From NCBI GenBank assembly GCA_043228905.1, contig JBHGNT010000007.1, positions 8,060,001 to 8,124,000 on the forward strand: a DNA stretch of 64,000 nt, written 5' to 3'. The stretch comes from Azolla caroliniana (taxonomy: Eukaryota > Plantae > Polypodiophyta). The position numbers and the translations under genes were made by a program. The notes below the pieces were generated by a model. That model was given only the letters and a program-made list of their open reading frames with translations. It was not told the DNA's origin and did no database searches. Positions 68-58,405 of this stretch are shown here, in pieces (position 1 is the first letter of the stretch; each line of letters starts with the position of its first letter).

Positions 68-299
68 ACGTCCTCATCGAATCCATCCACCTTGGTTAGC
101 CACTACACGAAATCACCTACCGTGGTTGACGGCCCCAACTCCCATGTCATCCTCCACTTCATCTTCAACTCCCGCTATAGATTCTAGCTCCCCAATGGAG
201 ATTGATCGAATTTGCTACTAACCGTTGACTAGTACTCTGCGTTGATACCACTGCATGTCTCTATTGTGACGGGCCAACTTGTGAGATCAAGTGCAAAGT

Positions 300-575
300 A
301 GTGTGAGGGCTCTGTACCACTAATATTGGTAATGAGATAAGGTTGGATACAATCAATAGGCATTCTTGCCTTATATTGAGACCAATATTTAAGGTTGACA
401 TTTGCAATGTAGTATTCTAGCTTTGTTCTCTTAGAATCTTCCCACTTCATCCTTAATAATTCCACTAACCTTTGCTCTATCATTACAAAATACATAGTAT
501 CACCCAAAAGCTCAAAAAGATCATCCACACCCCATCTTTTGAACCATTTTCTTATGTCAACAATCCAACCGAATG
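300..575 (-). pseudogene. LINE ORF2 C-terminal fragment
   Basis: GWIVDIRKWFKRWGVDDLF resembles GWMQYLDKWFGRWDARHLL in the LINE at ~14230-14290. Confidence 0.5.
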
Positions 576-1878
576 AGAAGGAGAATGGATTTGGGAAAAA
601 GGGTGGACGAAACAAATCCAATTGTTAGTGACAAAAGAGACAAGGGAACAGAAGGGAGGTGAAGGGAGCAAGTTTGAAGCATGAGAAAAATGATAAAGCT
701 TATATTAGCAAGCCAATTTAATTAATGTCCAAGATGGATGTTGATCTAATTGAATCTAGTGCCTCTTTTTAGTTAAGTATGGTCACCTACCTTTTCTTGC
801 ATTACATATGTATGTCAAATGAGCATAAACAATGTCTTATTTTAGTTAGAAATAAAGAATCTATAGTATAATGTGAGCAGATAAAAAATAGGGAAATTAT
901 GTGAGTTTAGGGTTTACTTTTATCCTCAAAATATAGGTTTTATGAGGAAGAGCCACAATGTTTTCCTAAAATTAGAGAATTTGTTTGAGCAATGACCTAT
1001 GTTTTTGTATTGAAATGGGAGAAGCACCATGGAGCATTTCTTGACTAAATAAACTATACAATATAACTCTCAATTGACTATTTCCAAAACCACAAGCTTG
1101 TTTGTTGGGCATAACACTTCGGGCTATTAGGATTTCGGGTTTGGAAGTTGGGATACATTACACTCTTTTTTCATGGTGCCTTCATAGATTCTTGGGTAAT
1201 TAATTGAGGCATCTTCACAAAGCCAATGTGTCACAAGGGAAAGTTGTGGAAACTCCCACTTTAGCAACTAATCATCTGAATTGTGGAAATTCATCAAGTA
1301 CTTTTATGAAGGATGAAGAGAAAATTAAGCATAAAATAATCAGAATTTATCAGAGTTTTGGAGATTGGCCAAGCTTCAGTACTTAATTTATCCAAAAACA
1401 CAACAATTGTGCCTGTATTATATATCAAATTTTTGACACAATATTGCTTGATGTTGAACGCTTTTGCACTATACATATATAGAGAAACAATAGTGAAAAT
1501 GAGCTGCTATACATCCATAAAAACATCTTCAGTGTGTCTCTAATAACAGAGACAATTCATCCAGTAACAAAAAAACTATAGAAGAAGACAGAAAAGAAAA
1601 CTAAAGAACAGCCATTCTGTAGTCTTCATCAAGTAGCAACTTCTCAAATAGATTTTGAGACTGTTTTTTTTCATTACATATATAACTCTAAAGTATCTAT
1701 CTACCTATCTACCTACTACCCCTACATATCGTTTCTCTTAATCTTTGTAACAAAAAACTATAGAAAAGAACAGAAGAAGAAAACACAAGAGTATGTATGG
1801 ATATCTATCTATCTATCTATCTATATATATATATAATTATTTATATGTAGATGTATATGTAGAAGATGTATATAAAAA

Positions 1879-2342: not shown

Positions 2343-2429
2343 CTGATAAACAAAAGAAAAAAGAAAATAAACCATCTGACTGATGGATGCATCGACAATT
2401 CAACACCTCAGAGCATGAAATTACATACA

Positions 2430-23491: not shown

Positions 23492-24249
23492 ATAAACACA
23501 AGTGATCATATCTATCAAGTTCACATGGCAAATGGAAGCGTTCAATACATTAGTGGCATTGTTTATCAACCACCAATTGAAATAGATACCTATTTGGAGA
23601 AGCTACACTTTCATGTTATAAAACTACAATTCGCAAATGTCATTTTAGGATACCCTTGGTTTTTTAATAAAAACCCTTCTTTGTCCATTGATTGGGTTAA
23701 TCACTCAATCACATTCGAACTTAATAATTGTAAACATTTTATTCAATGTTCCAAACTTCGTTCTCGTTCACTTGTGTCTTCTAAATCTTTAAGTGAGTAT
23801 TCTAGTTCATTATTTTATTCGTGTGTAATTGATCCTGTGCTTCAATTTTATTATTTTAATATTGACGCCACACAATTACCACATTATGAACAACGATTAC
23901 TCGACTCTATTTTAGACGATTTTCAAGACATGTTTCCTAACGAATTGCCGCTTACTTTACCACCAAAACGTTGTCGCGAAGTTTCGCACGCGTGTGTTAC
24001 TTGGGCGGGATCACGGGGGTCTTGGACTAGGGAGTACTCAAGGGATAGAGAAGACCTAAGGTTTGCTTTATGACAATACTACTTTCCGACCCTTCCCGAG
24101 CAAGGTCTCATTGCCCTTTGTTTTGTGAGGCCGATGGCTCTCGTTGATCACGACTCGTCGAGCTTTCGAGATCACCGCACGAGCCAAGTGATCAAATGAG
24201 TACAAGCAAGATGAGCACGCAAGATGAACGCACAAGGGGACGATAACAC

Positions 24250-24775
24250 AAACACGAATGCCTGTACGTCTTTAAGAGGAGGAGAGGTGCATGGGCATGC
24301 CCGAACGCTCCCTCGTCAGAAGACGTCGAATGTACGAGGAAGACACAAAACACACTCACAAATGCTCGTACGCCTTTATGCGGAGGAGAGGTGCATGGGC
24401 ACGCCCAAAATGCTCCCTCGTCATAAGACGGCCGAACGTACAAGGAAGACACAAACACACACACAAAATGCTCGCACGCCTTTATGAGGAGGAGAGGTGC
24501 ATGGTCAAGGCCGAAATGCTCCCTCGTCACGAGACGACCGAACGTACAAGGAAGACATAAACACACGCAGAAAATGCTCGTACACCTTTATGAGGAGGAG
24601 AGGTGCATGGGCAAGCCCGAAACGGTCCCTTGTTACAAGACGAACGAACGTACAAGGAAGTCACAAACACATGCACAAATGCTCGTACGTCTTTATGAGG
24701 AGGAGAGGTGCATGGGCACGCCCGAAACGCTCCCTCGTCACAAGACGGCCGAACGTACAAGGAAGACACGAACAA
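24250..24775. repeat. Five ~105-bp tandem repeats inside the G-C LTR
   Basis: ggagaggtgcatgg recurs at 24281, 24385, 24491, 24597 and 24702. Confidence 0.92.
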
Positions 24776-26869: not shown

Positions 26870-27291
26870 TGTTGAGAGACAAGCTCAACATTCGGTGCGA
26901 AGTACGCAGCGTAACCCAATGCATAGACTGGGTGCGTGAAAAAGTACACACAAGAGGGCCGCATCGGTGTGAAAACCAAAAAGGCCGTTAGAGCGTTATT
27001 CCTCGTAAGGAATAATTTTGGGAGTGAGTGTCGCGGCTCATTTATGAGCGTCAAGTACTGTCAGTACTTGTGTCAGCCCGATTGTTAGGGCTTGTATATA
27101 AGGTGCTCACTGAGCACGAGGTATGTACACAGAACAAAGCGTCATTATTTTGAATCTGAGTTTTTTGTTGTTTGCTCTCTCTCTCTCCATCTCCATCTTT
27201 GTGTTTTCTGTGTTTTACTGAATTGTCTTATTCCTCCGAACCGTGTACTCTGCATTTACGCACACGCTTCCGCACAACATATTCTTTTACA
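26870..27291 (+). mobile_element. Copia solo LTR with 5-bp TSD
   Basis: TGTTGAGAGACAAGCTCAACA...TTTTACA flanked by CCAAT (26865-69 and 27292-96). The start is identical to the C5 LTR start. Confidence 0.92.
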
Positions 27292-29976: not shown

Positions 29977-30018
<42 letters not shown>

Positions 30019-33600: not shown

Positions 33601-33890
33601 CTCCGGTTGGAATGCGAACGCCTTTCCATGCCTTTTTAACATCTCCCTGAACTGCTTTTCTTCAGCGGGTAATAGGAAGTCACCCCCTCCTATTTTCATC
33701 CCTTGTATTGTTTCCGGAGTAAACACATGTCCTACCTTTCGTGGGTCTCTGATCATTGGCTCTGTGGCTGCTTCTTTGCTTGCCTTTTCACTATCCCCTG
33801 GAAGTGGAGCAGCAATAGGACGAACCTTCTTCTCCACTGTCTTGTACTTTGTTAGTACATGTGCTTCATGATCCTTTCGAGCAACTTCTT

Positions 33891-39328: not shown

Positions 39329-39590
39329 TTCTTCAATGACCTCGTACATCTTGATTGAATGGACAGGAACTTGGATTTCGTTGTCTTCTTCCATTGCTTC
39401 CAAATGAGTTATTGTATCTTCAAAACTTAATTCTTCAAACATATCCTGAATTTCTTCATCATCATCTATTAATCCAGAACACTTAAAGTACTCGAAAGCA
39501 TTTTGTATTTTATTATTATTTACTTTTAGTATAAAAGTAGCACCATTAGATGAGATTGTACAAGGAATATCTTTATTTACATTATTATTT

Positions 39591-39655
39591 ATGGGGTTTT
39601 CTTTTATGTTCGGACTATCACAGCCCCTACCTGTAAAAGCCCTATCTAAAAATCC
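39591..39655 (-). promoter_or_regulatory. Predicted -1 ribosomal frameshift signal of G-A
   Basis: G GAT TTT TAG followed by the stem GGGCTTTTACAG/CTGTGATAGTCC, whose loop GGGG can pair with downstream CCCC. The -1 frame is open into pol. Confidence 0.8.
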
Positions 39656-41760
39656 TGGGAAAACTCTTCATCCATCTCTTGAATTGGATGTTCCCTCAAG
39701 CATTCTTTGTTTCTTTCATGGTTAGGCCTCACGGTTAAGAATTGGACAATCTTTCTTCCATCTTGACTCTTGATTCTCGCGAAAGCCGAACCATCATCAA
39801 TAACCTTTGTTTCCATCCTCACTGCGGTGATGTAGGGCTGGCCAAGGATGACAGGGTAGGTTGATCGATCCTGCACAAAGAAATTTTGATTCACCGAGAC
39901 ATCACCAATTGTTACCTTCACACTAGGACATGCTCTGAATAGATCCTCCGTAGTTTCTGTGGCAGCTCTTATTTTCCACCCATGATTCTTGTCGATCGGC
40001 CACCGTCCTCGAGCATAAAATTCCGATGACATCATGTTAATCTCCGATCCATGATCGATCAAAGCAATACATGGAATTTGCTGCTCCCCAATTTTTGCAA
40101 GTGCCTCCGTTGTTGCTCGAGCCCAATGGTCCCTTGTATAGTGACTCCTATCCCCTTCATGGACGCCAACATCATTCTGGTTTTCTACACTTGCAGCATT
40201 GATGGTGCCAGAATACAAATCTTGAAGTGTTGTTGCACACCCTCCCGTAATTTCCTCCGTCACCTGTCTCTTCCTTCTAATAATATCTATGATAACTTCA
40301 TGAAATTCTTTCTTTGCTATACCCAACACTTCTCTTAAAGTAAATTCTACCTTACTATTTAGTATTCTTGTTTCTAGTACCTTTTTTATATCCGTTGTTT
40401 TTTCTATGTCTGAGGCAAGCTTGAAAGATGGGCATGTCTTTCCTTTTACTTTATCAGCTTCCTTCGGCTCAGTAGCACCCTTTTCCATCTCCCTTCTCTT
40501 CTGTTCTCGTGTCTCATGTCTCTTTGTCGGATCAGCTTCCTCAGCTCTCTTCCGCTTCTCTTCCACTAGCACATCTCGTGCATTCACTTGGGCGAATGCT
40601 GATAGCGCGTCTACTGGATCATTCCATCTAGTGAAGTTTCGTATTTCATCTCCCGCTCTTTTTAATTCATCCACTCGAACCTTCCCTTTTCTTGCATAAT
40701 CCATCACATCTTGCCAAAAGCTAGATCCACCATATGAGTCTTCTACGCGCAATCCTAAGGTTGCCACGGATTGTATCGCTTGCGTCGTTTCTCTCTCGGT
40801 ATCTTCCATTAGCTTTTTCATTCCTCCTCGCCCAAAGTTGAGTTGAAGTGGTTGTCGAGTCTCAGTTGAGTGAATCTTGCCATCTTGATAGTAGATTTTA
40901 TTATGATTAAGAGCATCCCTATGCTCTTGACAATCTTTCTTCTGGTGGTCGATACTATCACACCACATACACCTTCGGACCATTCCACCTCCCTGCCTTG
41001 ATGAAGTCGAGCTTTGTCCCGATTCTAGCTTCGTCACTTTGATCGACAAGTCTTTCATGCCTTTCACCAATTCGTGTAAGAGTGATTCTTCTACTTTCTT
41101 TTCTCCTGACTCATTCCCCATTTCTTCATCATTTCTGTCGGGCAACTCCATAAACCATAACTTTCTTTTGCAAAAATGGGCGCACACCCTTTTCACCTCC
41201 TCCCAGTCTTCGGTAAGTCCACTTGGACTATTCTGATCTTCTAAAAGCATTCCCAAGTCCTTCTTGTCTTTAATATTAGTGGCTTGGAGAAACAATATTA
41301 CTTTATCTAGCATTAGTATATTTCTATCCCTAATATTTAATTGCTCAAATCTTTCAGAAAACTCTTTTAATACTTCCAAAACACTTAAATGTTTATCAGA
41401 CTCTACCCAATCCATGAAAGCTTGCCTTGTCATCCTTGACATATCGTTGAGGTTGTATTCATTGAGTAATGCTCTTTCGAACGTTGTCCATGTCTGATTC
41501 TCCCTTCAGAGCTCTTGGATCCTCTCTTGTAGCCCAATCGCAGCGATGCGACTAAAGCTATTAATTTTTGTAGCTTCATTGACACCGCGTTTAAGCATTT
41601 CTTCATTATAAATCTTCAGAAATCTTGTTAAATTTATACCTTCGAAGATTCCTACTCGTGTGAGAATATTGTCGACGGCTTTGTCGATGCTTGTCATCAT
41701 CCCTTGTTCCCGCATCACTCGTTCCATCATCGTACACATAAGCCTCATTTGCTCCTCCAT
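39646..41760 (-). pseudogene. G-A Gag-protease ORF1 (disrupted near the N-terminus)
   Basis: CMWCDSIDHQKKDC zinc knuckle. Protease ALIDHGSEIN...ILGQPY is in the same ORF. Confidence 0.88.
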
Positions 41761-41778
41761 TTCTCCTCGTCCGCCGCC

Positions 41779-41796
41779 TTCACGTCGGGTTCACCA
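41779..41796 (-). promoter_or_regulatory. PBS complementary to tRNA-Trp (also 54793-54810 and 29639-29656)
   Basis: TGGTGAACCCGACGTGAA is the reverse complement of the plant cytosolic tRNA-Trp 3' end TTCACGTCGGGTTCACCA. There is a 4-nt spacer after the LTR in all three elements. Confidence 0.9.
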
Positions 41797-41936
41797 AATG
41801 TGTCGGGGTAGTTGTGGTTCGTGCGGCGAAGTCGCGGGGACTAAGGTTAAGCGGAGTTGAAGAAACTTAACTTTTAATAAGGCTTGTATGGTGATGATAG
41901 AATGGTTAAGGATAGTAAGAAGAAGAGTTACGAGTA

Positions 41937-41984
<48 letters not shown>

Positions 41985-42491
41985 AGAGCATAGATAAAAG
42001 ATAGAGACAATGTATGATTCAAGAAAGAAGATTGCGACAAAGTATGATTCTAGAATAAGATTGAGACAAAGTATGATTCAAGAAGCAAGAGTATATGATA
42101 TAAACATGATGTATATTAAAAAGACAATATTTTACCAACTTTACAATCCTTGATCGCAAACTGAACACATTCTCTATCGACCCTTGATTTGAACCCACGA
42201 CATCAACTTCGAAACGAGAGGTTCTCCACCCAATGAGCTAGTCTTCTTTACTTGATTGTATTATTTTCTCACTCTCTCTTGATTCCTTCCTTTTTGTTTT
42301 CCTTTCCCCTCTTTTTATAAGTATTTCCATGCATATGGTAATGTCATGCATGTAATGCATGATCGCCATTTGGCGCACATGCATTGCATGTGATGAATGA
42401 TGGCTATGTATGAAAATAGATATGAGATAATTATAATGATGAAAATGCATTCTAAAATAACTAACCTAGCTTAGTGGTGTATGCTTGGTGC

Positions 42492-43685
42492 CTGGGACTA
42501 CGGTTTCCCTGTCTTCCGCGTTCTGATTCGGTAAGGAGCGCTTTGGAGTTGGAGCTCGTATCTTTATCTTTCCGACACGCCTCCTCATCTAGCAAGCTCG
42601 ACTTTACTCTTGCTAGGGATAACCGCTTTCCTTCCGGCCCGGCGTTGCCCAAAGTGACAACCAACGTCTCCCAGCTATCCGGGAGGGAACCGAGCAGGAA
42701 TAGCTCTAGTACCTCGTCGGCGAGAGGTACTTCCAATTATGTTGCCTGGTGGATCAGCCCCTAGAAGGCATTCATGTGCTCCGCCATGTTGGAGCCATCT
42801 TGGTACTAGAATCTTACTAGCTTCCGGAATACCGAAACCTGATTAACAACATTTTTGTTTTGAAACATTATGACAATCTTCTCCCAGAGCTCATGAGCCT
42901 TGCTCTCTTCATTGAAGTTGTTGTACAGGCTCAGCCGCTCATGTCAATGAGGGCACCGTATGTACGCCGTTGTCTTCATGTGCATCACCTCCCATATCGC
43001 GGCGTCGATTTTGTCTGGTCTCTTGTCCCCGAACTGAACCGGCAGCCAGAGGTCTTTAACCACGATCATGTCCCTCATCCTCGACTTCCACACTGAATAG
43101 CTGGAGCCGGTAAGCTTGAACATGCCGCCAAACGATTCGTCCATTTTCTGTGTCGTTTCGCTCTGATACCACTTGACGGGAACTCAACGCTCCTTCTACA
43201 CGACGCTCAGCCACAACCGAGCTTAGAATCATACACAGAAAACGGGAAATAAATGCGCGACACTGTGAAGAGAAGTGTACACGGGATGTTTACGTGGAAA
43301 ACCCAAACTAAGGGAAAAACCACGGCAGCCCACAGGCTGCAAACTATCACTATGTTAGAATGTACAACAGTGAGTTCAAAGAGGCAACGACCTCATGCTC
43401 ACGATCTTCGCCACAGGCAGCGGTTACAACAAAGGCAACGACCTCTTTCTCTCTCTCTCTCTCTCTCTGCACACAGTTACGCGCTCTCTCTTTTCTTGCA
43501 CCAACAAGAAATGACAACAACAACTAAAAGTTTGCCCTAAGTCATATTTATACTAATATGACTTTTCGGCTATTTACAAATGTAGCCACGATGGACTCTC
43601 AGAAACATATTTACAAATATGTCTCTTCATCCGGAGAGCATTCCTCACCGGGTCTGCACCATCCGGAGGGACCTGTCTCCCAACA
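42492..43685 (-). mobile_element. Tork/Tnt1-type copia C6, 5' LTR (43174-43685), Met PBS, partial gag
   Basis: MFKLTGSSYSVWKSRMRD and LLGSLPDSWETLVVTL. PBS ends 43171. Inserted into the C5 integrase. Confidence 0.88.
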
Positions 43686-44263
43686 GCATGTAGTCGTCGA
43701 TGAAGGAGACGAAATATCGGCTCCCACCAAGACTAACGTTTTGTGCCAGCCCCCATACATCGGAATGAATAATGTTGTCGTGCCTTTCGACTCCGGATCG
43801 TTGCGTGAGTCGGGTGGGAACCGCTGGGGTTTTGGACTAAGAGGAAAGAAAATTCTAAGTCAATTAAGAATATGAAATATATTGTAAGAAAGAAAAATAT
43901 GAAAACTTCGTGAATCCCATGAGTATAGTGTATTAGTGAGTAATCAAATTAAGAGAGAATAGTTAGCAAATTCCTGAATCCCACGATTATCTTATATTAA
44001 TCAACCCTTGTAAAATAATCAACAACCTCTATACATCTTTCTCTCTTCCTTATATAGTGTTGGAAGAGTCTCAGTTTATCACATGCAAGCATCATGCTTT
44101 TTCTATCTTTAGTTTTCATGTACACTGCATGTGCATGATTAGCTTTATATCTCATCTTTTCTTTTTAACTCGAGTGTCTATGCATGAATAACTTTTGTAC
44201 CATGCATGTCTAGAAATTTTACATGGAATAAAGTTTAGTATAACTTTAAAATTCATAATACCC

Positions 44264-44322
44264 TACTATAATGATAAGGCTTAACATTATTAACATGGAG
44301 GTGCAAGGTTCGAATCTTGCCC
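44264..44322 (+). promoter_or_regulatory. Degenerate tRNA-like A/B-box module in the G-B LTR (copy at ~55303-55360)
   Basis: TACTATAATGA...GCAAGGTTCGAATCTTGC, homologous to the cleaner module at 56113. Confidence 0.55.
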
Positions 44323-47300
44323 TATGCATGTTATATATATTTTTTATACTTTCTTCTATTTACAAATACGTCTCTTCATCCGGTGAGATACTCTCATCGG
44401 CCTTCTTCATCCAGCTCTTTCCGGTTCTGCTTCATCTAGTGCTTGATAGTTTTCTTTGTCCGGTTCTTACCGGGACCTCCTTACCGATCTCTGCGTCCGT
44501 TTCTCACCGACTCTCACCGGCCTTCTTCATCCAGCTCTTGCCGGGTCTCCTTGCCGGTTTCGGTCCTTACTAGTTCCTTCTTCCGGTTCTCACCGGGTAC
44601 TCCATGTCCTATCTGGAGAGACCAAAAATGTAATTTTTCACGTAGTGTATGAATTACACTACGACACTCGCCTCCTCCGAACCCGCACATCCTCCGGTAT
44701 GTGCCGAAGTCCCCGATGCTTGCTATTCACCTTCATCCGAAGCTTCCTCCGATTCTCCCCTTAAGTCAACGATGAGTTCTAATCCACTTTCTTCACTTTC
44801 CGCATCACCGCGATCTTCGTCCGATTGCTCCTTCTGGTCTGTCTTGTCTAGGATCACATAGGGTTCTTCATCAGTTCGCTTCTTGAAAATCTTCACCCGT
44901 TTCCCGGCTATAGGCACTCGTAGCATTGTTCCATCTAACTCACATAGTCGGTAAGTTCCGCTGTCGAAAACTTTCCGAACCTCGTATGGACCGAACCACC
45001 TTTTCGCGAACTTCCGCATCGTTGTATGTTGATGATCCAAACTACTATCGTAGACAATCACCCAATCTCCCTCTTCAATCTTCCACGGTCGTAGTCGGTG
45101 CTTTGTGTCGAACCGGCTTTTATTCCGGAATCGCGCTTCTTGTTGTCGGCGTATTGCTTCTGCTATGTCTTCCGGTCTTCCCTCCAGTTGTCGTATCCGG
45201 ACCGCTAGTAGTTCTTCCCGGCTCATCTCTTCCTTCCATGGTAGCATTGTCCATGTCGCAATTGCGGTTTCCGTCGGCATTACCGGTGCTTGTCCGGTCA
45301 TGAGTTCTGTCGGCATATAACCGGTTACGGAGCTATGCGTTGTCCGATCCGCCCATAGTGCATACGGGAGCATCTGCGGCCAATCCATCACCCTTCCGTC
45401 GCATGCTTTGGCAAGTGCTTTGACGATCGGACTATGTCCTCGCTCGACCTTCCCGTTGGCTTCCGGATTGTATGCCATTGTTAGTGTTAACCGAACTCCA
45501 TGTTTGGCGAAGAATCCCCTAGCTTTATCAGAGTCAAGTTCTCCCCGATCCGCAATCACTTGTCCTACGCACCCGTACCTACAAAACACTTCTTCCAAAA
45601 GGAATTGGCATACCATAGAACATGTTTTCCTCCGTAGCACCCGACCTTCTACTTGGTTTGTGAGATCTTCCCGAGCTAACACTAAGTACTTCTTTTGTCC
45701 GATCCCGGTTGGCATGGCTACAATGTCGACCATCCATTTGAAGTTGATTGTCGGTGAGAATGTCGGATGTAACTCATCTCGGTGTCAAACTCTGGAGTAG
45801 ATTTGACACTTCTCGCAGCTTTCCATGAACTCCGAGACATCTTTGTACATATTCTTCCACCAATATCTTTGCTTGATCTTCCCAAATGTTGCCCATGTTC
45901 CCCGATGTCCAGCCCAATCAGATTCATGAAATTCGGACATTACCTGGTTTCATTGCTCTTTTGTCCTGACTACTCGAAGTGGTATGCCACCCGGTCTTTT
46001 CGGCTCCCTCCATAAAAACCCATTTTTCAAGAAGAACTTTCGGACTTGCCGTTTCTTACTTCGGACCTCGGCTCTCTTCTCTTTATTGTCCGATGATTCC
46101 TCGATTTCTTGTAGCATTTTCCCGATCAACAAGCTTTCTCCCTCATATTCTTCTTCCCGGAATTCTTGGATTACGTCCACCCGGCATATGTGCTCCGAAG
46201 CAAAGTAGTCTTCGGAAACTTCTTCATTATCGGATTCAGTTATGTCATCTCCGAACCGCGCCCTTGATAGCATATCCGCTACAATGTTGTCTTTTCCGGA
46301 GATGTGTCTTACCTCCGGATTAAGTGACTTAACATATGCAATCCATCTTAGCATAGCCACATCCGGTATCGTGCAACACCGCATCATCCCGAGTATCGGA
46401 AGACAATCCGTTTCGATCACTACTTCGGCTCCGATCAAATAATCTCGATCTGATTTGATTGCCGACACGACTCCCCATAATTCTCTTTTAACTTGTGCAT
46501 ATCCGTGTTGCCTTTCGTTGAGAACCTTTGCTCCGAATCAGATCGGATATCGCGAACCTTCCGGATCGGCTTGATTGATGACCCATCCGATTCCAGTTGG
46601 ACTTGTGTCAACCGTTACTATGATCGGTTGGTCATAGTTCGGCTTCTTTAGTGCTTCTGCCCTCCGTAGTGATTTCTTGAGCTTCTTCACGGCTTTGGTA
46701 TGCTCCAGTTTCCATTCAAACTTCTTACCCTTCCGCAACAAGTGATAGAGTGGGTCCCCTATATGTGCATAGTGCGGAATCCATATGTGGTAGAATGCAC
46801 ATGCTCCAAGAAACCTTCGAACTTCGGATTGTGACTCGCATACTTCTTTCATAGCTTGAATCACATCGATCTTGGTTGGTGACGGTCTTCGGCCGTAGGG
46901 CCCACATAGATGTCCGACTACCAATATTTCTTCTTGTCCGAATGCCGATTTCTCTCCGGAAAGTGGTAGATGCACATCTTCTAACTTCCGTAACACTTTC
47001 TCACAATCACGGATATGATTGACTACAAACCTTCGGCATCCCCGTTCATCCATAGCTTCCTCTTTTTCTTCCACCGCACACCCTTTCATCGGAATATCAT
47101 CTAGGAACGGCATCGTTATCTCCGGTATGCAATCCCAGAGCACCTTGTTCATCGCATTCATCATATGTGCAACTGAGTTCGTCGCGCCTTGTGGTAGCGT
47201 ACACATCCGGACTAATCCTATCGGTGTTCGCATGGTAGTGATGTCTCGGCTCTCCACAGCTAGTTGGAAATGGTCATATCCGGAATATAGGTCTCCGATG

Positions 47301-48201
47301 GAGTATATCGCGCGACCGGCAAATGCTTCTGCAAATTCTTCTACTATCGGACCGACTCCGGAGTTCCGGATCGTGACCTTGTTCACCGGTTGCAAATCTT
47401 GAATAAATCGGAGTGACCCATTCTTCTTCGGAACCGTAAACCATCGATTTGAGTACGGAGCATTTCATGGCTCTAGAATCCCCATTGCCACCTTCTCCTT
47501 AAGCAAGTCGATGATTTTCGGAATATGCACCCGTGGCACCGGAATCGGCTTCAGGTTCCACGGCACATGGTCAATCGTGAAGATCACCATCGGCTCCACT
47601 ATCTTCAGGTCAACACATCTTATTTCTTTCGATGTAAATGCAAATGCTCTCCCATGTCGCTCTAGCATCCCACTAAATCGTTCTTCTTCATTCTTTAATA
47701 GGAACCCACCTCCACCGATCAGAAGTTTCTTCCGGGTCTCATCCGTGAAGGCATGTCCGATATCCATGGACTTCCGAAGTGTCGGATCCCCCGAGACTTC
47801 TTTCCTCCTTTGTTCGCTATCTGCGGGTAACGGTCCCGCGGCCGGTTTCACTTTCTTCTCCACGGTCTTGTATTTCGTACTTACCATTGCTTCTTCTTTG
47901 CAGAGCGCATCCGGCCCCATTTTCACAATGATCTCGTACATCTCAACCGACTCCACCAGAATTACCCAGTTTCCCTGGCTTGTATCTTCCGCGAGCTCTT
48001 CAAGCCGTTGTAGTGTGCTCCCATAGAACACTTCTTCGACTATTCCCATGATTTCTTCATCTTCATTTATTATTGATGCCGACCGTAACTTATCCTCCAC
48101 CTTTCGGTATTCTTTCTTCATTCCTCCGGTTACGGCCGTGTACGTGGATGCCCCATCCGGACCGATTCGTACTTGTTTTGGACCGAGAAGTTTCTTCCTG
48201 T

Positions 48202-48265
48202 GTGGGGTATCAGGGCTTCTCGGACTATCACTTCCCCACTCCGCAACAATCCGCTCTAAAAATCC
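48202..48265 (-). promoter_or_regulatory. Predicted -1 ribosomal frameshift signal of G-B
   Basis: G GAT TTT TAG followed by the stem CGGATTGTTGC/GTGATAGTCCG. Loop GTGGGG pairs with downstream CCCCAC. The -1 frame is continuous with ORF 47465-48121. Confidence 0.82.
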
Positions 48266-48636
48266 ATTCTTGTTTGGAACAAGAGCTCTCTCTTGTTCCT
48301 TTCATGATTTGCCGGCACCGTTAGGAATTGGACGGATTTCCCTCCGTTTTGGCTCCGAATTCGCGCAAAAGCCGCACCGCTATCGAGCACCTTCGTCTCC
48401 ATCCATGATGTCGTGATAAAAGGTTGCCCGAGGATCACGGAGTGTGAGACCTCGTCTTGTACGAAGAAATTTTGGTCGATCTCGACATCCCCGATCTTCA
48501 CCGTCACATCCGGACAAGCCGCAAATAGATCTTCCGTTGCTTTAGTGGCCGCCCGGATCTTCCACCCATGATTCGTGTTAATAGGCCACTTACCCTTCCG
48601 ATAGAATTCCTTGGACATCAAATTGATCTCCGGTCC

Positions 48637-51600
48637 GTAGGCTGCTTCTTGCTACTCCAAGATATTGTTCCGCTGCCGAGGGAGAAAACAAATCTGGAGG
48701 TTGATCTTCTATTGGCTTTGTAGTCGGCCCAATCGGCGTCGGTGTACCCCTCGAATCGTATTGGCATTGCAGTCTTGTAGAGGATGCCGCAATCCATTGT
48801 GCCGCTCACATATCGCAGAACTCACTTAGCGCAATCCAAGTGAGTATCACCCGGTGTTTGCATGAATTGGCTAAGGAGACCGATCGGATAACTGAGATCG
48901 GGTCGAGTGATCGTGAGGTAGAGGAGACTCCCGATGAGTTGCCGATACTGAGTCGGCTCACACGCTTTGGTGCCGGAGTTCGCATCTAGTTTGAGATTAC
49001 GATCGAGCGGGGTTGCCACGGATTTGCACTCAGCCATCCCGAACTTGTATAACAAGTTGAGGATGTAGTGCCGTTGAGAGATCATGATTCCGGCCGGAGT
49101 CCGAATTACCTCGATGCCGAGGAAGTAGTGGAGCTCCTTCATGTCCATCATCTTGAACTTGTCGGAAAGGAGGGATTTGACCTTACTGATTTCGACGAGA
49201 TGCTCACCTCCAATGACTAGGTCATCCACATATAAAATGATGACGATCGGATTTGCGGAATCGCTTCGTATGTAGAGGGAGTTGTCCGATTTTGACATAC
49301 GGAAGCCGATTTGATGAAGATATTGCGTTATCTTCAAATGCCAAGCACGCGGTGCTTGCTTGAGGCCATAGAGTGGCTTCTTGAGTCGGCATACAGCTTT
49401 CGGATGGGTGCTCGAGTTGAAGCTGGGTGGTTGGATCATGTACACCTCCTCTTCTAATTCGCCTTGTAGAAAGGCGTTCTTGACGTCCATCTGATGGAGG
49501 TGCCACCCTTTCGCCGCGGCAATCGCAATTACGGTCCGCACCGTCGTCATCTTTGCCACCGGTGCAAAGGTTTCTTCGTAGTCGACGCCATGTGTCTGAG
49601 CGTATCCTTTCGCTACGAGTCGAGCTTTGTAGCGGTTGACGGAACCGTCCGCGTTGTACTTCACTTTGTAGATCCATCTGCATACGATCGCCTTTTTGTG
49701 GGAACGAGATCCCATGTCTCGTTCTTCCGTAGTGCCTGCATCTCCTCGGTCATTGCTTCGATCCATCGCGGGTCCTTCGCAGCTTCGGAAAAGGTTTCCG
49801 GCTCCCGTACTGTTGCTACCTTCATCATAAAGGCGTAATGGTGCGCCATATAATCATTGTAGCCGAATCGGCTTACGGGGTTCTTTTCCCGAGTGGATCG
49901 GCGGAGCTTTTCATTTGCAGAGATGAGGGCTTTCTTTGCTCCGATTGGTACCTTGAAACCGTCGAACTCACTGTCGAGTGAGTGAGTTGACTCATTGTCG
50001 GTGAAGCGATCGTCTTCGTATTCCGCCATTTTCGCCTTGCCTTTGTCCATCTTCGGGCTAGGCCGTGATGTGCTTTGATCGCTCAAAGGCTCTTGTGGTC
50101 CGCTCAGTCGGGTCGTGATCGTACTTTCTTCGAACATGCGCGTAAGATGATCTTCATCCTCTATCTCTTGTTCGGTGGATTCTGGGTCGAGCGGAGTCGG
50201 AGGCGAAGTTGTCTCTGGTGCGTACTAGGATGCGAACTCGTCAAAGACGACGTCTCGACTTACCCAAGATTTTCGAGTTGAGGGGTTGTAGCACTTGTAC
50301 CCCTTTTGCTCCAGTGAGTATCCTACGAGGATACATTTCTCCGACTTCGGGTCGAGCTTTTCACACTTCTCATCGGGGATGTGCACGTACGCAATGGAGC
50401 TGAATATCCGAACATGTGATAGGTTCGGCTTCTTTCCAAAGAATCTTTCGTGCGGAGTGACCTCGTGCACGTCAGATGTTGTGCACCGGTTCATTAGGTA
50501 GACAGCCATATTTGCCGCTTCAGCCCAATATGACTTGGGCATATGCTTCTCGTTCATCATGGCCCGCGCTACTTCGAGGATGTGCCGATTTTTGCGCTCG
50601 GTTACTCCGTTTTGTTGCGGAGTGTGTCGGCAAGTGAATTCTCGCCGAATTCCTTCCTTTCAGAGATACGCCGTGAAATCATCCGAGAAATACTCCTTGC
50701 CGCCATCCGATCGAAGGCATCGTACATGTCGGCCCATGGCTTTCTCGACTTCATTCTTGAGCTTTTGGAAGTGTCCGAACACTTCGCTCTTTTGCCGCAT
50801 CGGATAGATCCAAGTGTGCCTAGAAAAGTCGTCGATGAAGAGCACGTAATATCAGCATCCGCCGAATGTCGCCGTTTGGGCCAGTCCCCATACATCAGAA
50901 TGAATTACGTCGAGTACGCCTTTGCTCACATTCCGCTCCTTCGGGAATGGGTGTTAGTGTTGCTTGCCGAATTGGCACGCTTTGCATACACCTTCAATCT
51001 CCTTCTCTTTGAATGTCGGGAGTCCGATAACGACTCCTTTCGATCTCATTGCTTTGAGTTTGTTGAGATTGATGTGGCCGATTCGCTTATGCCATAGCTC
51101 TATGTCGGAGTCGGCTTTCGTGCTTTTCGCGAACATGGCGGATTTCATTTCGTGCGAATCGAGAATGAACATCCAGCCCTCTCTTCTTCCGCGTGCGATG
51201 ATCCGGCCTTCTTTTTCGATGAAGCACCCTTCTTGGTCGAATCGTACTTGCATCCCTTGCTCAACCATTTAGCTGACCGAGACCAAATTCTTTGTGATGG
51301 TGGGAACATGCAAGACATTTTTAATATATGTTTGCTTACCTCTTTCGTCGAACGGAACATTGCCGATGTGCCGAATCGGGTGCGTAGTGTCATCTCCGGT
51401 TTCGACATAACCGGGTCGCTCCGGCTCTCGAAGTTCGAGAAACCATTCTTTATGGGATGTCATATGGTTTCAGGCTCCGGAGTCTACAAACCATACTTCC
51501 TCCGGATTGAGGGCACTAGTTGAGGTAGAGGCCGACATAGAGTTTGCTCTATGTTTCATCATGAACATTCCGCCACGGTCGGAGTTCCATGCATACATTC

Positions 51601-52800
51601 CGCCACGATCTTTGTAGTCGGAGTTGTTCCCGTACATTCCGCCTTTGTAGTCGGAGTTGTTCCCGTACATTCCGCTATACTCTTCGTAGTCAGAATTGTG
51701 TGCGTAATTTGTGAGTTGTCGGCTTGTGGAAGTCGATTCACGCATCTTCTTTCGGCACTCTTCTTCGTGGTGGCCGAGCTTTCCACAATATCCGCATTCG
51801 GTTGCATTTTGACGGCTCGGGCCGGATTGGAAGCTCCCCCTTCTTGCGAAGGTTCCTCGTTGGCCTCCGTTTTGCAGCCGAAATTGGGAGTTGTTGTTGT
51901 AGGTCGGACCTCGTCCACCTTGTCCTTGGCCGAATCGGCCTCTCGCTCGTCCGCGTCCTCTTCCTCCATTAGAGTGCGTGTAGAGCATGTGGCCTTCCGA
52001 CTCATTGCTCCTTGTACGCACGTGGTTTTCTTCGACCAATAGCATTGATTGGAGCTCGAAGAAGGATGGAGATTTCTCCCGTGCTAGAACGGCGGTTCGC
52101 ATCGCGCCGAACCGTGGTGCGAGGCCGCCGAGGCATATTTGCACCATCTCATCATCATCTATACTTACGCTTATTGAGCTGAGCGAGTCGCAAAGCTCCT
52201 TGATCTTCAAGGTGTATGTCGTGATGGACATGTCCCTTTGTTGAATGTTGTTCAACTCTTGGCGGAGTTGAAGCTTCCTCGCGATCGTGTTGGCGGCGAA
52301 AATCTTTCGTAGATTTTCCCACGCTTCCTTCGGCATCTTGGCTTCACGAATGTAGCCGAGCATGTGATCATGAACACATGTCGCCAAGCAATACATCACG
52401 CGGCTTGCGGCTTGCTCCCATGTCACGTATCCAGGAGCCGCTTCGGCGGGTCGGTCTTCATGTGCTCCTTTGATGTAGCTCCAATAGCCTTGTCCGACAA
52501 GGTATTGGTGCATCTTGTACTCCTAAGATGCGAAGTTGTTTCGATCCAACTTCTCGGTAGGGAGAGCGCTCCCCATTTGAGTATTCATTATGTCGATTCT
52601 TCTTCTTTTTCTCTCTTCGAATGCGAGCTATGTAGCGAAGCTACGATAGCGATGAGCCAGTTCTTGGTCGTCAGCGTGGAGCACAACACACGATCACGAT
52701 GAGGCGAATGGGCTAGATCGAGCTACCAAATCACTCTGATACCATGTAAAGAATCAAGAGATGGATTCTTGTGAAGCGGAATAGGTGTGAACTGTGTGTG

Positions 52801-52834
<34 letters not shown>

Positions 52835-53134
52835 AGTAATACACAGAGAATACGCAAGGTAAAGTATATTTGCAAAGGAGAAAGACTCAACTCTATACAA
52901 GGTGGGAGGAGGGTGCTTTATGTAGTCACCCTCTCTCTTCATTAACTACAAAGCTCATGGAGCATGGGGAATGTGAAAGCTCATAAGTTATGTGTCATAG
53001 AATATGATTCTATGACTCATACTAAATGCTAGAATACACAGTGGTGACATAATGGTGACTCTTGACCGTTGGAGTGTCTCTTCACTCTCAAGGTGAGTTC
53101 ACACACTAGACCAAGTTGAGCTTGATTCTCAACA
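48637..53134 (-). mobile_element. Copia C4, 3'-deleted, inserted in the G-B protease active-site region
   Basis: 5' LTR 52745-53134, PBS ends 52744. Gag, PR, IN and RT remnants run up to WSSKKQPT. Host ALI|...EINLMSKEF flanks it. Confidence 0.92.
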
Positions 53135-55412
53135 CAATCAATGCTAGCACCGGCTCTTTGATGTTACCGATTTGGACTGGAGTCTCCGTAGTTGCGCGTG
53201 CCCAGTGTGGCTTTGTGTAGTGAGAATTCGGTATTTCGTCCTCCAATTCGGTGTCATTCATTAGAACAGTATTTGCATTCACCCTGGGAGCGTTCTCCTC
53301 CGTACTTTGCCTTTTTCTCTTCACGAGATCCACAAGAAGATCGTGGAACTCCTTCGTTATTCCGAGTAATTCTCGAAGCGAAAAATCTACCCGGCTATCG
53401 AGGATTCTCTCCTCGAACACCTTTTTCAAGTCCGTTTGTTGTTCGATGTCCAAGGCGAGCTTGAATGCTGGAATCATCTTTTCTTTTCTTTTCCAGCTTT
53501 CCAGTGTCTTCGATGGACCGGCCTCCTCATCCGTGCGCCGTCGCTTCTCATCTACATACACTTCATGCAATTCGCATAAAGCAAACACGCTATTCTTATC
53601 GACGGGGCACTCCCCTCCCGTAGCTTCCCGAATGCCTTCTGCGGTGCTTCGGATCTCATTAGAGTCGGTTTTCTCGGTGTTTTCTAGCACTTCCGGCCAA
53701 AAAGACACCGTTGCTCCCGATGACTCCCCGACACGTATTCCCGTGGTTGTCGCGTAATTGTTCTTCGCCGCTATTTCCTCCTCTAGGACCTTCTTTATGC
53801 CGCCTTTTCGGAAGTTCGGTCGGAGCGACTTCCGAGAGTCCATCGAATGAGTCCGATTTCCCTCGTAGTAGATAAGATCCTGTCGTAGCGCTTCCTTGTG
53901 CTCGTCGCAATCCCTCCGATCATGTTCGGTGCTATCGCACCATATGCATCGACGATCCATATACTTGGAACTTGTGGGACGGTCATCCGACTTCTTCACC
54001 ATCGCAATTTTTAGATTCTCCATCTCCTTCAGCAACTGCTCCACCGTAGTTGCGTCGATTCCCTTCTCAGTCGTAGCTTCCCGAGCCCGCGGTTGATGGT
54101 CTTCCAAACCGGATCTCGGTTTCGGAATCGGTTCCGAAACCCTCTTTTCTTCATTGGCAAGCCATTGCCCCCTCTTTGTATATCGCGCGACGATATCCCG
54201 CACGCTTTCCCATGTTTCGGTGAGGCCACTCTCGGTAGTCTTGTTCTCTAGAAGCACTCCAAGATCCTTCCGGTCTCGGACGTCTACGGCTCGTAAGAAC
54301 ATGATAACTTTGTCCGGTGCGAGGATAGCTTGATCTCTCGCAAACAACCTCCCGAACTGACTTTCGAATGCCGAAAACACATCGAGGACCTTCATACCCT
54401 TGTCCGGCGTTTCCACCCAATCCTCGAATCCTCTCCGCGTTGCCTTGGAGGAGTCCTCGATAGCGAACGTGGTCTTTAGCGCCTCTTCAAACGCTTCCCA
54501 TGTCGGATTTTGTTGTCGTAGCCCGTGGATACTTGCTTGAAGCCCGTCGGTAGCCACCCGGTTGAAGGATGCCACTTGCAGTCCTTCCGAAATCCCACAC
54601 CGTAGCATTTCTGCCTTGTAGTCCCGAAGATAGCGCAATACGTCCTTCCCGTTGAATTGCCCGATCCGTTGCACGAGCCGCTCTACTGTCGCCGCTATCT
54701 CCGACATCGCACGTTGTTCTTGAAGCATCCGCTCGAACATCATCATCATGTTGTTAGCCTCCGGTTGATTCTCCATCTCCTTGCCACCCGTGTTCACGTC
54801 GGGTTCACCACTTGTGTCGTGCCTTTCGGCTCCGGATCGTTGCGTGAGTCGGGTGGGAACCGCTGGGGTTTTGGACTAAGAGGAAAGAAATTTCTAAGTC
54901 AATTAAGAATATGAAATATATTGTAAGAAAGAAAAATATGAAAACTTCGTGAATCCCACGAGTATAGTGTATTAGTGAGTAATCAAATTAAGAGAGAATA
55001 GTTAGCAAATTCGTGAATCCCACAATTATCTTATATTAATCAACCCTTGTAAAATAATCAACAACCTCTATACATCTTTCTCTCTTCCTTATATAGTGTT
55101 GAAAGAGTCTCAGTTTATCACATGCAAGCATCATACTTTTTCTATCTTTAGTTTTCATGTACACTGCATGTGCATGATTAGCTTTATATCTCATCTTTTC
55201 TTTTTAACTCGAGTGTCTATGCATGAATAACTTTTGTACCATGCATGTCTAGAAATTTTACATGGAATAAAGTTTAGTATAACTTTAAAATTCATAATAC
55301 CCTACTATAATGATAAGGCTTAACATTATTAACATGGAGGTGCAAGGTTCGAATCTTTCCCTATGCATGTTATATATATATTTTTTATACTTTCTTCTAT
55401 TTACAAATACGT

Positions 55413-56280
55413 TGTCGTGCCTTTCGGCTCCGGATCGTTGCGTGAGTCGGGTGGGAACCGCCGAGGTTTTGGACTAGGAGGAGGAAGAATTTGAGGCTAA
55501 TCTAGTTATGAATATGAATAGATTATAAGAAAGAGATATAGAAACTTGTGAATCCCACAAGTATAATTGTTTTAGTTTATCTAAATCGTAGTAATAAATT
55601 GAAATAATTTAGAATAGATTAGAGTAGATTGAGAAAAGAGATCAAACCTTGTGAATCCCACAAGTATTACATTAATCAATATTTATGTAAGAATATGAAT
55701 TTAGATTGAAAGAGATAGATTATCTTAAACTTCGTGAATCCCACGAGTATATTTTATTGATTGTTGGTGTTTTAGGAAATATATCCAATTTCCCAAATAT
55801 TTTTCACACTATTACATTGTGCTCCCCATCCTTATGTAGTGATGGGAGAGACTAAGCATAGCTACATGCTTTTTTTTTTTAATATGTTCATGCACACTAA
55901 ATATGCATGTGATGCTTTTCTAATCCTTGCTTTTATTTGCTAAATATAGTGCTCATGCACGCTAGATGTGCACGAGTCACTTTTTAGTTGCTTGCGTTTT
56001 TTCTATAAAATATTCACACACTCTAAAAATGCACGATTTACCTTTTAATAAAGGTAGGTGCAAATAAAGCACTTATAGTTATTAAATCTATTTGTAGAAC
56101 ACTAAAGATAAGGTAGCATAATGGTAAAGTTGAGGTTTGGTTACGTGGAGGTACAGGGTTCGAATCCTGCCCTATGCACGTGATAAATATTTTGATATTC
56201 TTATTTTATTTATTTATATGTAATTAAATCATTTATATTATTTTTACTTTTTCACGTAGTGTACGAAATACACTACGACA
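55413..56280 (-). mobile_element. Solo LTR of a G-B sister family, inserted in the G-B 5' LTR
   Basis: TGTCG...CGACA with the same termini as G-B but a different interior. TSD ACGT (55409-12, 56281-84). Confidence 0.92.
56113..56170 (+). promoter_or_regulatory. tRNA-like A/B-box module in the solo LTR
   Basis: Consensus A box TAGCATAATGG, 32 nt, then consensus B box GGTTCGAATCC. Confidence 0.72.
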
Positions 56281-58405
56281 ACGTATCTTCATCCGGTGAG
56301 ATACTCTCACCGGCCTTCTTCATCCGGCTCTTTCCGGTTCTGCTTCATCCAGTGCTTGATAGTTTTCTTTGTCCGGTTCTTACCGGGACCTCCTTACCAA
56401 TCTCTTCGTCTGTTTCTCACCGACTCTCACCGGCCTTCTTCATCCGGATCTTGCCGGGTCTCCTTGCCGGTTTCGGTCCTTACCGGTTCTCACCGGGTAC
56501 CATGTCCTATCCGAAGAGACCAAAAATGTAATTTTTCACGTAGTGTACGAATTACACTACGACAATGTCGAGCTTGTTATGGCTACGGTTTTGTTTGGCG
56601 GGGAATGGAAGCCGATGTTGCTTCCCGAGTTGGCAGGCTTCACATACTTGGGCCTTCCGCCCACTAAACTTCGGCAAACCGAAAACAACTTGTTTCGTTT
56701 GCAAGTCTTGAAGCCGCCAGTAATTGACGTGGCTAATCCGCTTGTGCCACAGGTCGATGTCCGATTCGACCTTCTGTCCTTTGGCGAACAAGGCGGTGCC
56801 AACGTCATTAGTGTCGAGGATGAACATCCTCCCATCTCTGCACCCTTGCGCGATAATCTGGCCCTCCTCCTCGATGAAGCACCTGAGGTGCGTAAACTGC
56901 ACCTGCATTCCGTGGTCGACGATATGTCCGACCGACACCAGGTTCTTCGTGATAGTCGGAACGTGTAACACGTTCATCAGCTTCCCCCTCTGTCCGACGT
57001 GGCTCAGGGGAACTTCTTCGACATGCACGATTGGGTGAGGAATGTCGTCTCCGGTTTCTCCAACTCCCGGTTGTTCCGGTTTCTCCAAGAAGGAGAACCA
57101 CTCTTTGTGGCTCGTCATGTGATTTGATGCACCAAAATCAACGTACCACACTTCCTCCGATTTGGAAGTGGTCTTCTTCATCGAGTTTGCCTCGTGCTTC
57201 TTACCGGGTCCGGATCCTTCGGTGTAGTGCGATCACTGCCATTTTCCTTTGTCGATATGTCCGGAACTAGATCCGGAGCCGGTCCTCTCCAACTTGACGC
57301 GCTTTTTCCAGCACTCACTCTCCCTGTGGCCTTTCTTGCCACAGTACCAGCATTCCGTGGCGGGTTTCCTCTCCAAACCGAAATTGCTGTCGGCACCATT
57401 TCGGGGTCCTCCTTCCTTGATCTCGTCGGTCGCCTCCATTGCGCACCGACTCACCTCGTCCTCCACGGGGCCTATCTCCCTCCATGTACAGCATCTTGTT
57501 GTCGGTGTACGTGCTCGTTGACGCACCCGCGTGATTCTCCTCTACCAGGAGCATCGACTGTAAGTCGAATAAGGAGTCGCATACGTCCTTGATCTTCGAG
57601 GTATAGTCAGCCACTGACAAATCGCGTTGTCGTAGGTTGCTCAACTCCTTTTGGAGCAGAAGCTTCCTGGTTGTGGTGCTCGCGGTGTAGATTTTCCCAC
57701 GCACCCTTCGGCGTTTTTGCATCCCGAACGTAGCTTAATAGCTATTTGCCCACACAAGACGCGAAACAGTACAGTACTTTGCTCGCCGATTGTTCCCACG
57801 CCGGGAAGTCTTTGTGTGTCGATTCGGGTGTCGTGTCATTCGCTCCTTCGACATAGCTCCAGTAATCGTGCCCAAGCAGGTACTGGTGCATCTTGTAGGA
57901 CCAAGATGCGTAGTTGGTTCTGTCGAGCTTCTCCGTTGGAAGTGAGCTAGCCATTCCTTTGTCCATCGGTTTTCTTGTTCTTCTTCGTTAGTTTTTCCTT
58001 CAAGCAATGTCAACTACAGAGATTCTCAACCCTCGCGCTCTGATACCATGAAAAGAATGGCGTGCGGAAGCAATATAGGAAACCGAACAACAGAAAACGC
58101 AGGTTTAATGGAAAGCTTAGGTTTGCACAGTATGCACGGGAGAGAGAGAGTAAAAAACCAAAACACTATTCAAAAATAATACTCAATCTGTGTATCGTGT
58201 GTGTTCAATGAACACTTTTATACAAGTCCTTTTCGGACTGACAGTACTTCAATGTTCATTAAGGAGCCCCTACACTAACTCCCAAATATATTCCTTGTGG
58301 AATATCTTTCTGATGGCCTCCCGGTTTCTGCACCAATCCGGCCTTCCTACGCACCGGTCTGCGTACCAATACTGATCCGGCCGATGTTGAGCTTGTCTCT
58401 CAACA

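What the first reader, a model, noticed from the sequence alone, without database searches (positions are those of the whole stretch)
68..56568. Gypsy lineage with 4-bp TSDs centred on CpG: possible CpG/methyl-CpG-directed integration
Seen: all six TGTCG...CGACA-type insertions have these 4-bp flanks: ACGT (68-71), ACGT (23968-71), CCGT (28942-45), CCGG (29837-40), ATGT/ATGT (43772-75, 56565-68) and ACGT/ACGT (55409-12, 56281-84). Both two-sided cases give 4 bp, and removing 4 bp restores the host frame (LDIIHS). Five of six have a central CG, giving the palindromic consensus MCGK. Copia TSDs here are 5 bp with no CG (TTCTT, CCAAT). Known: plant LTR elements usually make 5-bp TSDs with weak preference. 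Inference: this chromodomain-less integrase reads CpG, perhaps methylated, which would steer it into other TEs and help explain the nesting.
Basis: partly seen in the sequence, partly recalled or inferred. Interest (0 to 1): 0.85.

Follow-up and report, generated by a model that had tools for sequence, protein, structure and literature searches.

The report
Phygy retrotransposons inserting at CG sites
These plant jumping genes do insert across a CG dinucleotide and duplicate four bases, but they likely belong to the moss lineage Phygy, for which this preference was published in 2019, and nothing here shows that they sense DNA methylation.

Summary
Observation confirmed and extended. All six flanks are at the stated coordinates. 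The two two-sided cases are 4-bp duplications, and one has its empty site in the sister LTR. In 87 independent flanks of related LTR ends from metagenome contigs, 73 have a central CG (background 3.8%), 10 TG, 1 CA and 3 other. The consensus is VCGB rather than MCGK. It is not new: Neumann et al. 2019 list the Phygy lineage as 4-bp TSD in 100% of 186 elements, motif NCGN, tRNA-Trp primer and no extra domain. These elements match that profile and have Physcomitrium patens, Riccia and Adiantum homologues. No tree against labelled Phygy references could be built. Methyl reading is untested and not needed. No chromo, MBD or other extra domain was found. TG/CA targets were probably used at insertion, and CG-blind Copia elements nest here too. 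The likely mechanism is a foamy-virus-like 4-bp intasome whose central flexible step is narrowed to CG by base readout. An earlier unreviewed note filed nested elements of this genome under Phygy; my look-ups found none on the CG target.

The parts
1..67 (+). Element X: last 67 bases (U5 end) of a Phygy-type LTR, cut by the window edge
   Evidence: U5 motif shared with F, G, D, E; relatives with a PBS behind the same end
68..71 (.). Flank ACGT of X (one-sided)
23968..23971 (.). Flank ACGT of F (one-sided), in the protease-RT spacer of a different, degenerate Gypsy
23972..28941 (-). Element F, truncated: 3' LTR from 23972, integrase about 25750-26880, RT/RNase H about 27290-28940; cut by G
26870..27291 (.). 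Copia solo LTR nested in F, 5-bp TSD CCAAT (26865-69 / 27292-96): CG-blind nesting control
28942..28945 (.). Flank CCGT of G (one-sided), in the RT gene of F
28946..29836 (+). Element G: 5' LTR 28946-29634, PBS TGGTGAACCCGATGTG at 29639-29654, start of gag; cut by C
29837..29840 (.). Flank CCGG of C (one-sided), in the gag of G
29841..42495 (-). Element C: 3' LTR 29841-30755, gag-PR-RT-RH-INT, PBS 41781-41796, 5' LTR 41801-42495 truncated; LTRs 99.7% alike over 689 aligned bases
33891..39329 (+). Copia B nested in C, 5-bp TSD TTCTT: CG-blind nesting control
43772..43775 (.). Left TSD copy ATGT of D, in the integrase gene of host Copia K
43776..56564 (-). Element D: 3' LTR 43776-44666, integrase frame 44726-45784, PBS 54795-54810, 5' LTR 54815-56564 interrupted by E; a Copia (48640-53133) sits in its protease region; about 7.4 kb net
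44368..44371 (.). Empty site ACGT in the 3' LTR of D, homologous to the insertion site of E
55409..55412 (.). Left TSD copy ACGT of E
55413..56280 (-). Solo LTR E (868 bp, D-related family) in the 5' LTR of D
56281..56284 (.). Right TSD copy ACGT of E
56565..56568 (.). Right TSD copy ATGT of D

Best explanation
These are non-chromovirus Ty3/gypsy retrotransposons, likely of the known Phygy lineage, that insert across a central CG and duplicate 4 bp, probably because the integrase itself bends and reads that sequence, with no need for methylation. Shown: the 4-bp duplication, the VCGB preference across several families, a PBS and polypurine tract, the gag-PR-RT-RH-INT order, and an integrase ending in an SH3-like domain and an acidic tail with no further domain. 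Inferred: like the foamy-virus intasome, a 4-bp stagger needs a sharp kink at a central pyrimidine-purine step and disfavours T at the first and A at the last TSD position. This lineage narrows that step to CG by direct base contact, since the equally flexible and more common TA is avoided. Candidate contacts (untested) are the conserved loop between the first two C-terminal strands (S-S-L-D-x-Q-H...R-K-F-x-x-R-W) and the D-R-G-E motif, whose Glu sits where retroviruses have a small neutral residue. TG/CA (one G kept) is the second choice. Nesting into other elements would follow largely from their high CG density.
For: Flanks: 73 of 87 de-duplicated U5 flanks have a central CG against 3.8% background; G at position 3 in 84 of 87; T at position 1 in 2 and A at position 4 in 3; TA in 1. 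U3 side: 12 of 18 non-PPT rows are CG, 12 of 16 after dropping two that are not LTR starts. Run contigs at the U3 end of E follow the reference flank through ACG or ACGT in 40 (X4) and 63 (X2) of the contigs in the listed rows; 13 rows were not shown. Four two-sided cases are all 4 bp: D, E, L003 ACGT/ACGT, L059 ATGG/ATGG. Phygy profile: 186 elements, 4 bp 100%, NCGN, tRNA-Trp 81%, no extra domain (PMC6317226). Gag-protease homologues in P. patens, E 1e-189; RT and integrase homologues in Riccia, Adiantum and Ceratopteris. Nearest solved integrases by sequence and fold are PFV and Ty3. 4-bp-TSD retroviruses select a central YR step and avoid T at position 0 and A at +3 (PMC4422553). No chromo or MBD family at E up to 1 in 8 integrases. 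CG per kb: 6-8 in AT-rich DNA and Copia B, 47-82 in GC-rich elements.
Against: No experiment and no methylation data: sequence readout and methyl-CG readout predict the same TSD logo in a genome whose repeats are methylated. TG as second choice also fits an arginine that reads 5mCpG and TpG alike (PMC11514455, start of abstract only). The non-CG flanks are lopsided, TG 10 to CA 1 at the U5 end (p 0.012 against 1:1; p 0.068 against decay inside the LTRs), and A at position 1 (58) exceeds T at position 4 (41) (p 0.014); a symmetric intasome does not predict that. Two of the six window targets (X, F) lie in DNA with CG density below the window mean. No tree with labelled Phygy references. Net lengths of about 7.4 kb lie just under the P. 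patens range of 7.66-9.97 kb. 5 of 7 solo-like LTRs in the metagenome contigs have unmatched left and right flanks, so some of these contigs are chimeric or recombined. The contact residues are guesses from alignment; the model holds no DNA.
Confidence: 0.72

Rival explanations
1. The integrase reads methylated CG directly, for example through an arginine that contacts both the methyl group and the next guanine, and so steers new copies into silenced repeats without a chromodomain.
For: Near-absolute CG preference. TG/CA, the usual mimic of methyl-CG, is the main alternative, and was present on both sides in 2 of 4 two-sided TSDs. Five of the six window insertions lie in recognisable elements, and 39 of 80 flanks of 250 bases or more hit window elements (no background control). 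CG decay of about 12% inside the LTR ends fits methylated copies. A retrotransposon family with a captured MBD exists in arthropods (PMC6673714, listing only).
Against: No methyl-binding or chromo domain. TG is only 10 of 87, not clearly above its 6.9% background (p 0.08). Copia elements with CG-free 5-bp TSDs nest here as well. ZAM integrase binds and nicks CGCGCg in vitro by sequence (PMC2527525, abstract); that Drosophila has almost no CpG methylation is recalled.
Confidence: 0.15
2. The local preference is sequence readout, but a separate tether (acidic integrase tail or a host factor) first brings the complex to heterochromatin, so methylation correlates with targets without being read.
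For: Dense nesting in this window. Phygy-in-Tcn1 pairs were the commonest repeated nested pairs in P. patens (PMC6911290, passages). Phygy is among the lineages enriched at centromeres of a liverwort (PMC12885004, passages).
Against: No genome was held, so enrichment beyond CG density could not be measured. The tail is poorly conserved and of low model confidence. Selection against insertions in genes gives the same picture.
Confidence: 0.25
3. Pure bendability: the integrase only wants a flexible pyrimidine-purine step and CG is over-represented by chance or composition.
For: 4-bp-TSD retroviruses select a central YR step.
Against: CG is the rarest YR step in the flanks (3.8% against TG 6.9, CA 6.5, TA 6.3%) yet takes 73 of 87 sites; TA takes 1.
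Confidence: 0.03

Closest known systems
Phygy clade of non-chromovirus Ty3/gypsy elements, Physcomitrium patens (Neumann et al. 2019, PMC6317226; seen: passages, section 9, supplementary file 5; files 1 and 3 too large to read)
   Same: 4-bp TSD, NCGN motif, no chromodomain, no archaeal RNase H, coding region fills the interior, PBS that I recall as complementary to tRNA-Trp, gag-protease homologous to P. patens proteins.
   Different: Another host plant (unnamed; named protein relatives are from a moss, liverworts and ferns). About 7.4 kb net against 7.66-9.97 kb. The motif is refined here to VCGB with TG/CA as second choice.
Prototype foamy virus intasome and other 4-bp-TSD retroviruses (Serrao et al. 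2015, PMC4422553; seen: abstract, passages, section 14)
   Same: 4-bp stagger, central YR step, T avoided at the first and A at the last TSD position; nearest solved integrase by sequence and fold.
   Different: The retroviral preference is weak and accepts any YR step; here 84% are CG. Glu stands at the Ala188/Ser119 position (57 of 62 relatives), where the paper reports neutral compact residues.
ZAM of Drosophila melanogaster (Faye et al. 2008, PMC2527525; seen: abstract)
   Same: Gypsy-type integrase with a strong CG-rich target (CGCGCg), read by the protein itself.
   Different: Insect element with a six-base alternating target; not shown to be closely related.
TatI and Selgy clades (same supplementary file)
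   Same: 4-bp TSD; TatI also uses a tRNA-Trp primer.
   Different: TatI carries an archaeal RNase H, which was not found here. Selgy is about 5 kb with a tRNA-Ala primer. Neither is listed with an NCGN motif.
Arthropod Copia family with a captured MBD (PMC6673714; seen: search listing and start of abstract)
   Same: Precedent for a retrotransposon protein that binds methylated CG-dense DNA.
   Different: It has a separate MBD domain; none was found here.

Membership tests
Phygy | Ty3/gypsy order gag-PR-RT-RH-INT between LTRs with PBS and PPT | tested here: met
Phygy | 4-bp TSD | tested here: met
   4 of 4 matched two-sided cases (D, E, L003, L059); empty site for E
Phygy | NCGN target motif | tested here: met
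   5 of 6 in the window; 73 of 87 in related loci
Phygy | tRNA-Trp primer binding site | tested here: inconclusive
   PBS TGGTGAACCCGAYGTG in C, D, G and, exact or degenerate, in 22 of 120 loci. Its match to plant tRNA-Trp is recalled; three attempts to confirm it found nothing
Phygy | No chromodomain, no archaeal RNase H, no extra ORF | tested here: met
   Pfam scans of window frames and of 8 integrases show none; the integrase ends in an SH3-like domain and an acidic tail
Phygy | Length 7.66-9.97 kb (descriptive range from P. patens) | tested here: inconclusive
   About 7.4 kb net for C and D, both damaged by nested insertions
Phygy | Clusters with REXdb Phygy in RT/RH/INT trees (the formal definition) | not testable with these tools
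   Reference file too large to read. Indirect: P. patens gag-protease homologues at 36-63% identity over matched stretches
Chromovirus (Tcn1, Galadriel, Tekay) | Chromodomain at the integrase C-terminus | tested here: not met
TatI | Archaeal RNase H in the polyprotein | tested here: not met
   RT runs into RNase H and then integrase without a second RNase H
   No methylation data or assay available

The most novel reading that the evidence does not exclude
Phygy integrase is itself a methyl-CG reader. Conserved arginines of its C-terminal loop grip the methyl group and guanine of the unstacked central step, accept TG as a mimic, and so aim new copies at silenced repeats with no chromodomain. 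The lopsided TG:CA ratio would then reflect a non-equivalent U3 and U5 half of the intasome.
Probability: 0.13. Interest if true: 0.75.

Novelty: new member of a known kind. Interest (0 to 1): 0.24.

Why it matters
As it stands, this extends a rule published for one moss to several families in another non-seed plant and sharpens the motif to VCGB. It also points to two integrase features (the D-R-G-E motif and the conserved C-terminal loop) as testable determinants of an unusually strict target for a plant LTR element. In my searches the NCGN rule appears in one paper, and I found no test of its mechanism or of methylation. If methyl-CG reading were shown, it would be a domain-free way for a retrotransposon to find silenced DNA, which would matter for chromatin biology and for targeted integration tools.

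Tried and rejected
No whole genome was held, so there is no genome-wide TSD census and no background for nesting. A scan of viral contigs with the U5 pattern gave 2 loci, which were not analysed. A 5-bp TSD fails in all four matched two-sided cases. MCGK as consensus was rejected (46 of 87). The idea that all non-CG flanks come from later CG decay fits on rate (11 of 84 against 35 of 289 inside the LTR ends, p 0.85) but not for D and L059, where both copies carry the same TG/CA; the chance of two such cases in four is 0.0003-0.005. Whether the D target descends from ACGT is open: one related Copia has GAC GTA at that place, another GAT CTC. Confirming the tRNA-Trp primer by pattern scans and a text search found nothing. 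The loose-end tables show only part of the rows, so they give no complete letter frequencies. PMC7466625, PMC9002660 and PMC13469084 (passages) added nothing on target sites. No tree was built, for want of labelled references. No complex prediction was run.
Full report
What is in the window. The window is plant DNA made mostly of nested retrotransposons. Six insertions belong to one Gypsy lineage whose LTRs start TGTCG and end CGACA: X (1-67), F (23972-28941), G (28946-29836), C (29841-42495), D (43776-56564) and solo LTR E (55413-56280). F is cut by G, G by C, and E sits in the 5' LTR of D. The ends are real. The U5 ends of X, F, G, D and E share a motif; the 5' LTRs of C, D and G are followed by TGGTGAACCCGAYGTG, and the 3' LTRs of C and D are preceded by a purine tract. 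The RT-RNase H frame of C is 57-63% identical to those of F and D, so these are several families.

The observation. All flanks are as listed. D and E are two-sided and give 4 bp. For E the empty site is present in the sister LTR. For D the host Copia reads ...KLD on one side and IIHSDVWG on the other. The other four are one-sided. Five of six have a central CG against 3.85% background, and only 7 of 122 non-terminal copies of the same pentamers have such a flank. The Copia TSDs TTCTT and CCAAT are confirmed.

More sites. No genome was held. I scanned metagenome contigs with a pattern that covers only the LTR end, so it cannot select for the flank. I dropped 22 PBS junctions, 9 unrelated matches and 2 duplicates. 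Of the 87 left, the central pair is CG in 73, TG in 10, and CA, TA, AG and GA in 1 each; background CG is 3.8%. Position 1 is A 58, C 16, G 11, T 2; position 4 is T 41, G 22, C 21, A 3. The consensus is therefore VCGB. At the U3 end 12 of 18 rows are CG, or 12 of 16 without two that are not LTR starts. Two solo LTRs have matched 4-bp TSDs (L003 ACGT, L059 ATGG). Five others have unmatched flanks, which warns that some contigs are chimeric or recombined. Most loci share one series of record names, so they are probably one sampling campaign, and their LTR ends are only about 70-95% like the window's. Contigs of public runs agree. At the U5 end of D, 64 (X4) and 44 (X1) contigs leave the ATGT reference at the place expected for a CGT flank. 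At the U3 end of E, the listed rows follow ACG or ACGT in 40 (X4) and 63 (X2) contigs, with 13 rows hidden.

What it is. Neumann et al. [quoted passage not shown] Their supplementary file 5 gives Phygy as 186 elements, 4 bp in 100%, NCGN, 7656-9968 bp, tRNA-Trp in 81%, no extra domain. The window's elements fit: no chromodomain, archaeal RNase H or MBD, gag-protease homologues in P. patens at E 1e-189, and RT and integrase homologues in Riccia, Adiantum and Ceratopteris. The primer's identity as tRNA-Trp is recalled, not confirmed. Net length is about 7.4 kb, just under the range. The formal test, a tree with labelled references, could not be run. I put membership at about 0.9. Phygy has also been reported in a liverwort (PMC12885004, passages), and Phygy nested in Tcn1 is common in P. 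patens (PMC6911290, passages).

How it likely works. The nearest solved integrases are those of prototype foamy virus and Ty3. Retroviruses with 4-bp TSDs kink the target at a central pyrimidine-purine step and avoid T at the first and A at the last position (PMC4422553). The flank table shows the same edges. Bendability alone is not enough, because TA is more common than CG in the flanks yet takes 1 site of 87. So the protein probably contacts the central bases. Candidates are the conserved loop between the first two strands of the SH3-like domain and the D-R-G-E motif. Its Glu (57 of 62 relatives) aligns with PFV Ala188, where retroviruses have neutral compact residues. These are inferences; no DNA-bound model was made.

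Methylation. Nothing here tests it. The share of TG/CA flanks equals the CG decay inside the LTR ends (11 of 84 against 35 of 289), which fits methylated copies ageing. But D and L059 carry the same TG/CA on both sides, which independent decay would rarely give (0.0003-0.005), so such targets were probably used at insertion. That fits plain readout of one guanine. It also fits an arginine that treats TpG like methyl-CpG (PMC11514455, start of abstract). Nesting does not decide it. CG density is 6-8 per kb in AT-rich DNA and 47-82 per kb in GC-rich elements, and Copia elements with CG-free TSDs are nested in C, D, F and K as well. 39 of 80 longer flanks hit window elements, without a background to compare. 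The targets of X and F lie in DNA below the mean CG density. ZAM shows that a Gypsy integrase can bind a CG-rich target by sequence (PMC2527525, abstract).

Left unexplained. TG outnumbers CA 10 to 1 beyond the U5 end (p 0.012; p 0.068 against LTR-internal decay), and A at position 1 exceeds T at position 4 (p 0.014). In run X4, 9 contigs at the U3 end continue AC then mostly A, the mirror of TG in element orientation. D itself shows the opposite orientation. These tests are post hoc and the counts are small.

Literature and earlier notes. The word NCGN together with retrotransposon and TSD was held by one listed paper, Neumann 2019. Searches showed no test of methylation dependence for Phygy; subscription papers are largely missing from the library. 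One unreviewed note of this scan names Phygy as the closest match for nested elements elsewhere in this genome. Searches showed no note on the CG-centred target.

Verdict. Real, strong and well supported, but a new member of a described lineage with a published target rule. The methyl-reading idea is open at about 0.13-0.15. Interest 0.24.

Noticed in passing
window 44340-44630 and 56285-56540: Both LTRs of D carry a GC-rich, internally repeated piece of about 270 bases that E lacks. 31 bases of it match the neighbouring Copia LTR at 43608-43638 (94%), so it may be a captured Copia LTR fragment. E inserted at the ACGT in this piece.
   Followed up: partly
L091, L114 and window 43772-43775 / 50907-50960: Three insertions fall within about 55 bases of the homologous place at the start of the Copia integrase core: D in Copia K, and two metagenome loci whose flanks map to 50932 and 50950 of the related Copia. 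Possibly a local hotspot; small numbers.
   Followed up: no
L008, L014, L038, L065, L069: Solo-like LTRs with different left and right flanks, mostly CG-centred on both sides: chimeric assembly or recombination between two insertions.
   Followed up: partly
window 44726-45784 (-), residue 82 of that frame: Glu at the PFV Ala188 / HIV Ser119 position, conserved in 57 of 62 relatives (Asp in 4), unlike the small neutral residues of retroviruses.
   Followed up: partly
window 21354-22585: AT-rich element with long terminal inverted repeats (about 430 bases, 85%) and internal 50-base repeats, like a foldback or MITE.
   Followed up: no
window 24226-24774: About five tandem copies of a 105-base unit in or just inside the 3' LTR of F.
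   Followed up: no
window 48640 and 42495: The Copia nested in D lacks its 3' LTR and TSD, and the 5' LTR of C breaks off into another Copia: deletions after nesting.
   Followed up: partly
window 2742-2841: A run of 100 N (assembly gap) lies in the left LTR region of Copia A, whose two sides show duplicated sequence.
   Followed up: no
window 29841-30530 vs 41801-42495; 33891-34354 vs 38866-39329: The LTRs of C are more alike (99.7%) than those of Copia B nested inside it (98.7%), the reverse of the expected order; few substitutions (2 and 6), possibly chance or co-mobilisation.
   Followed up: no
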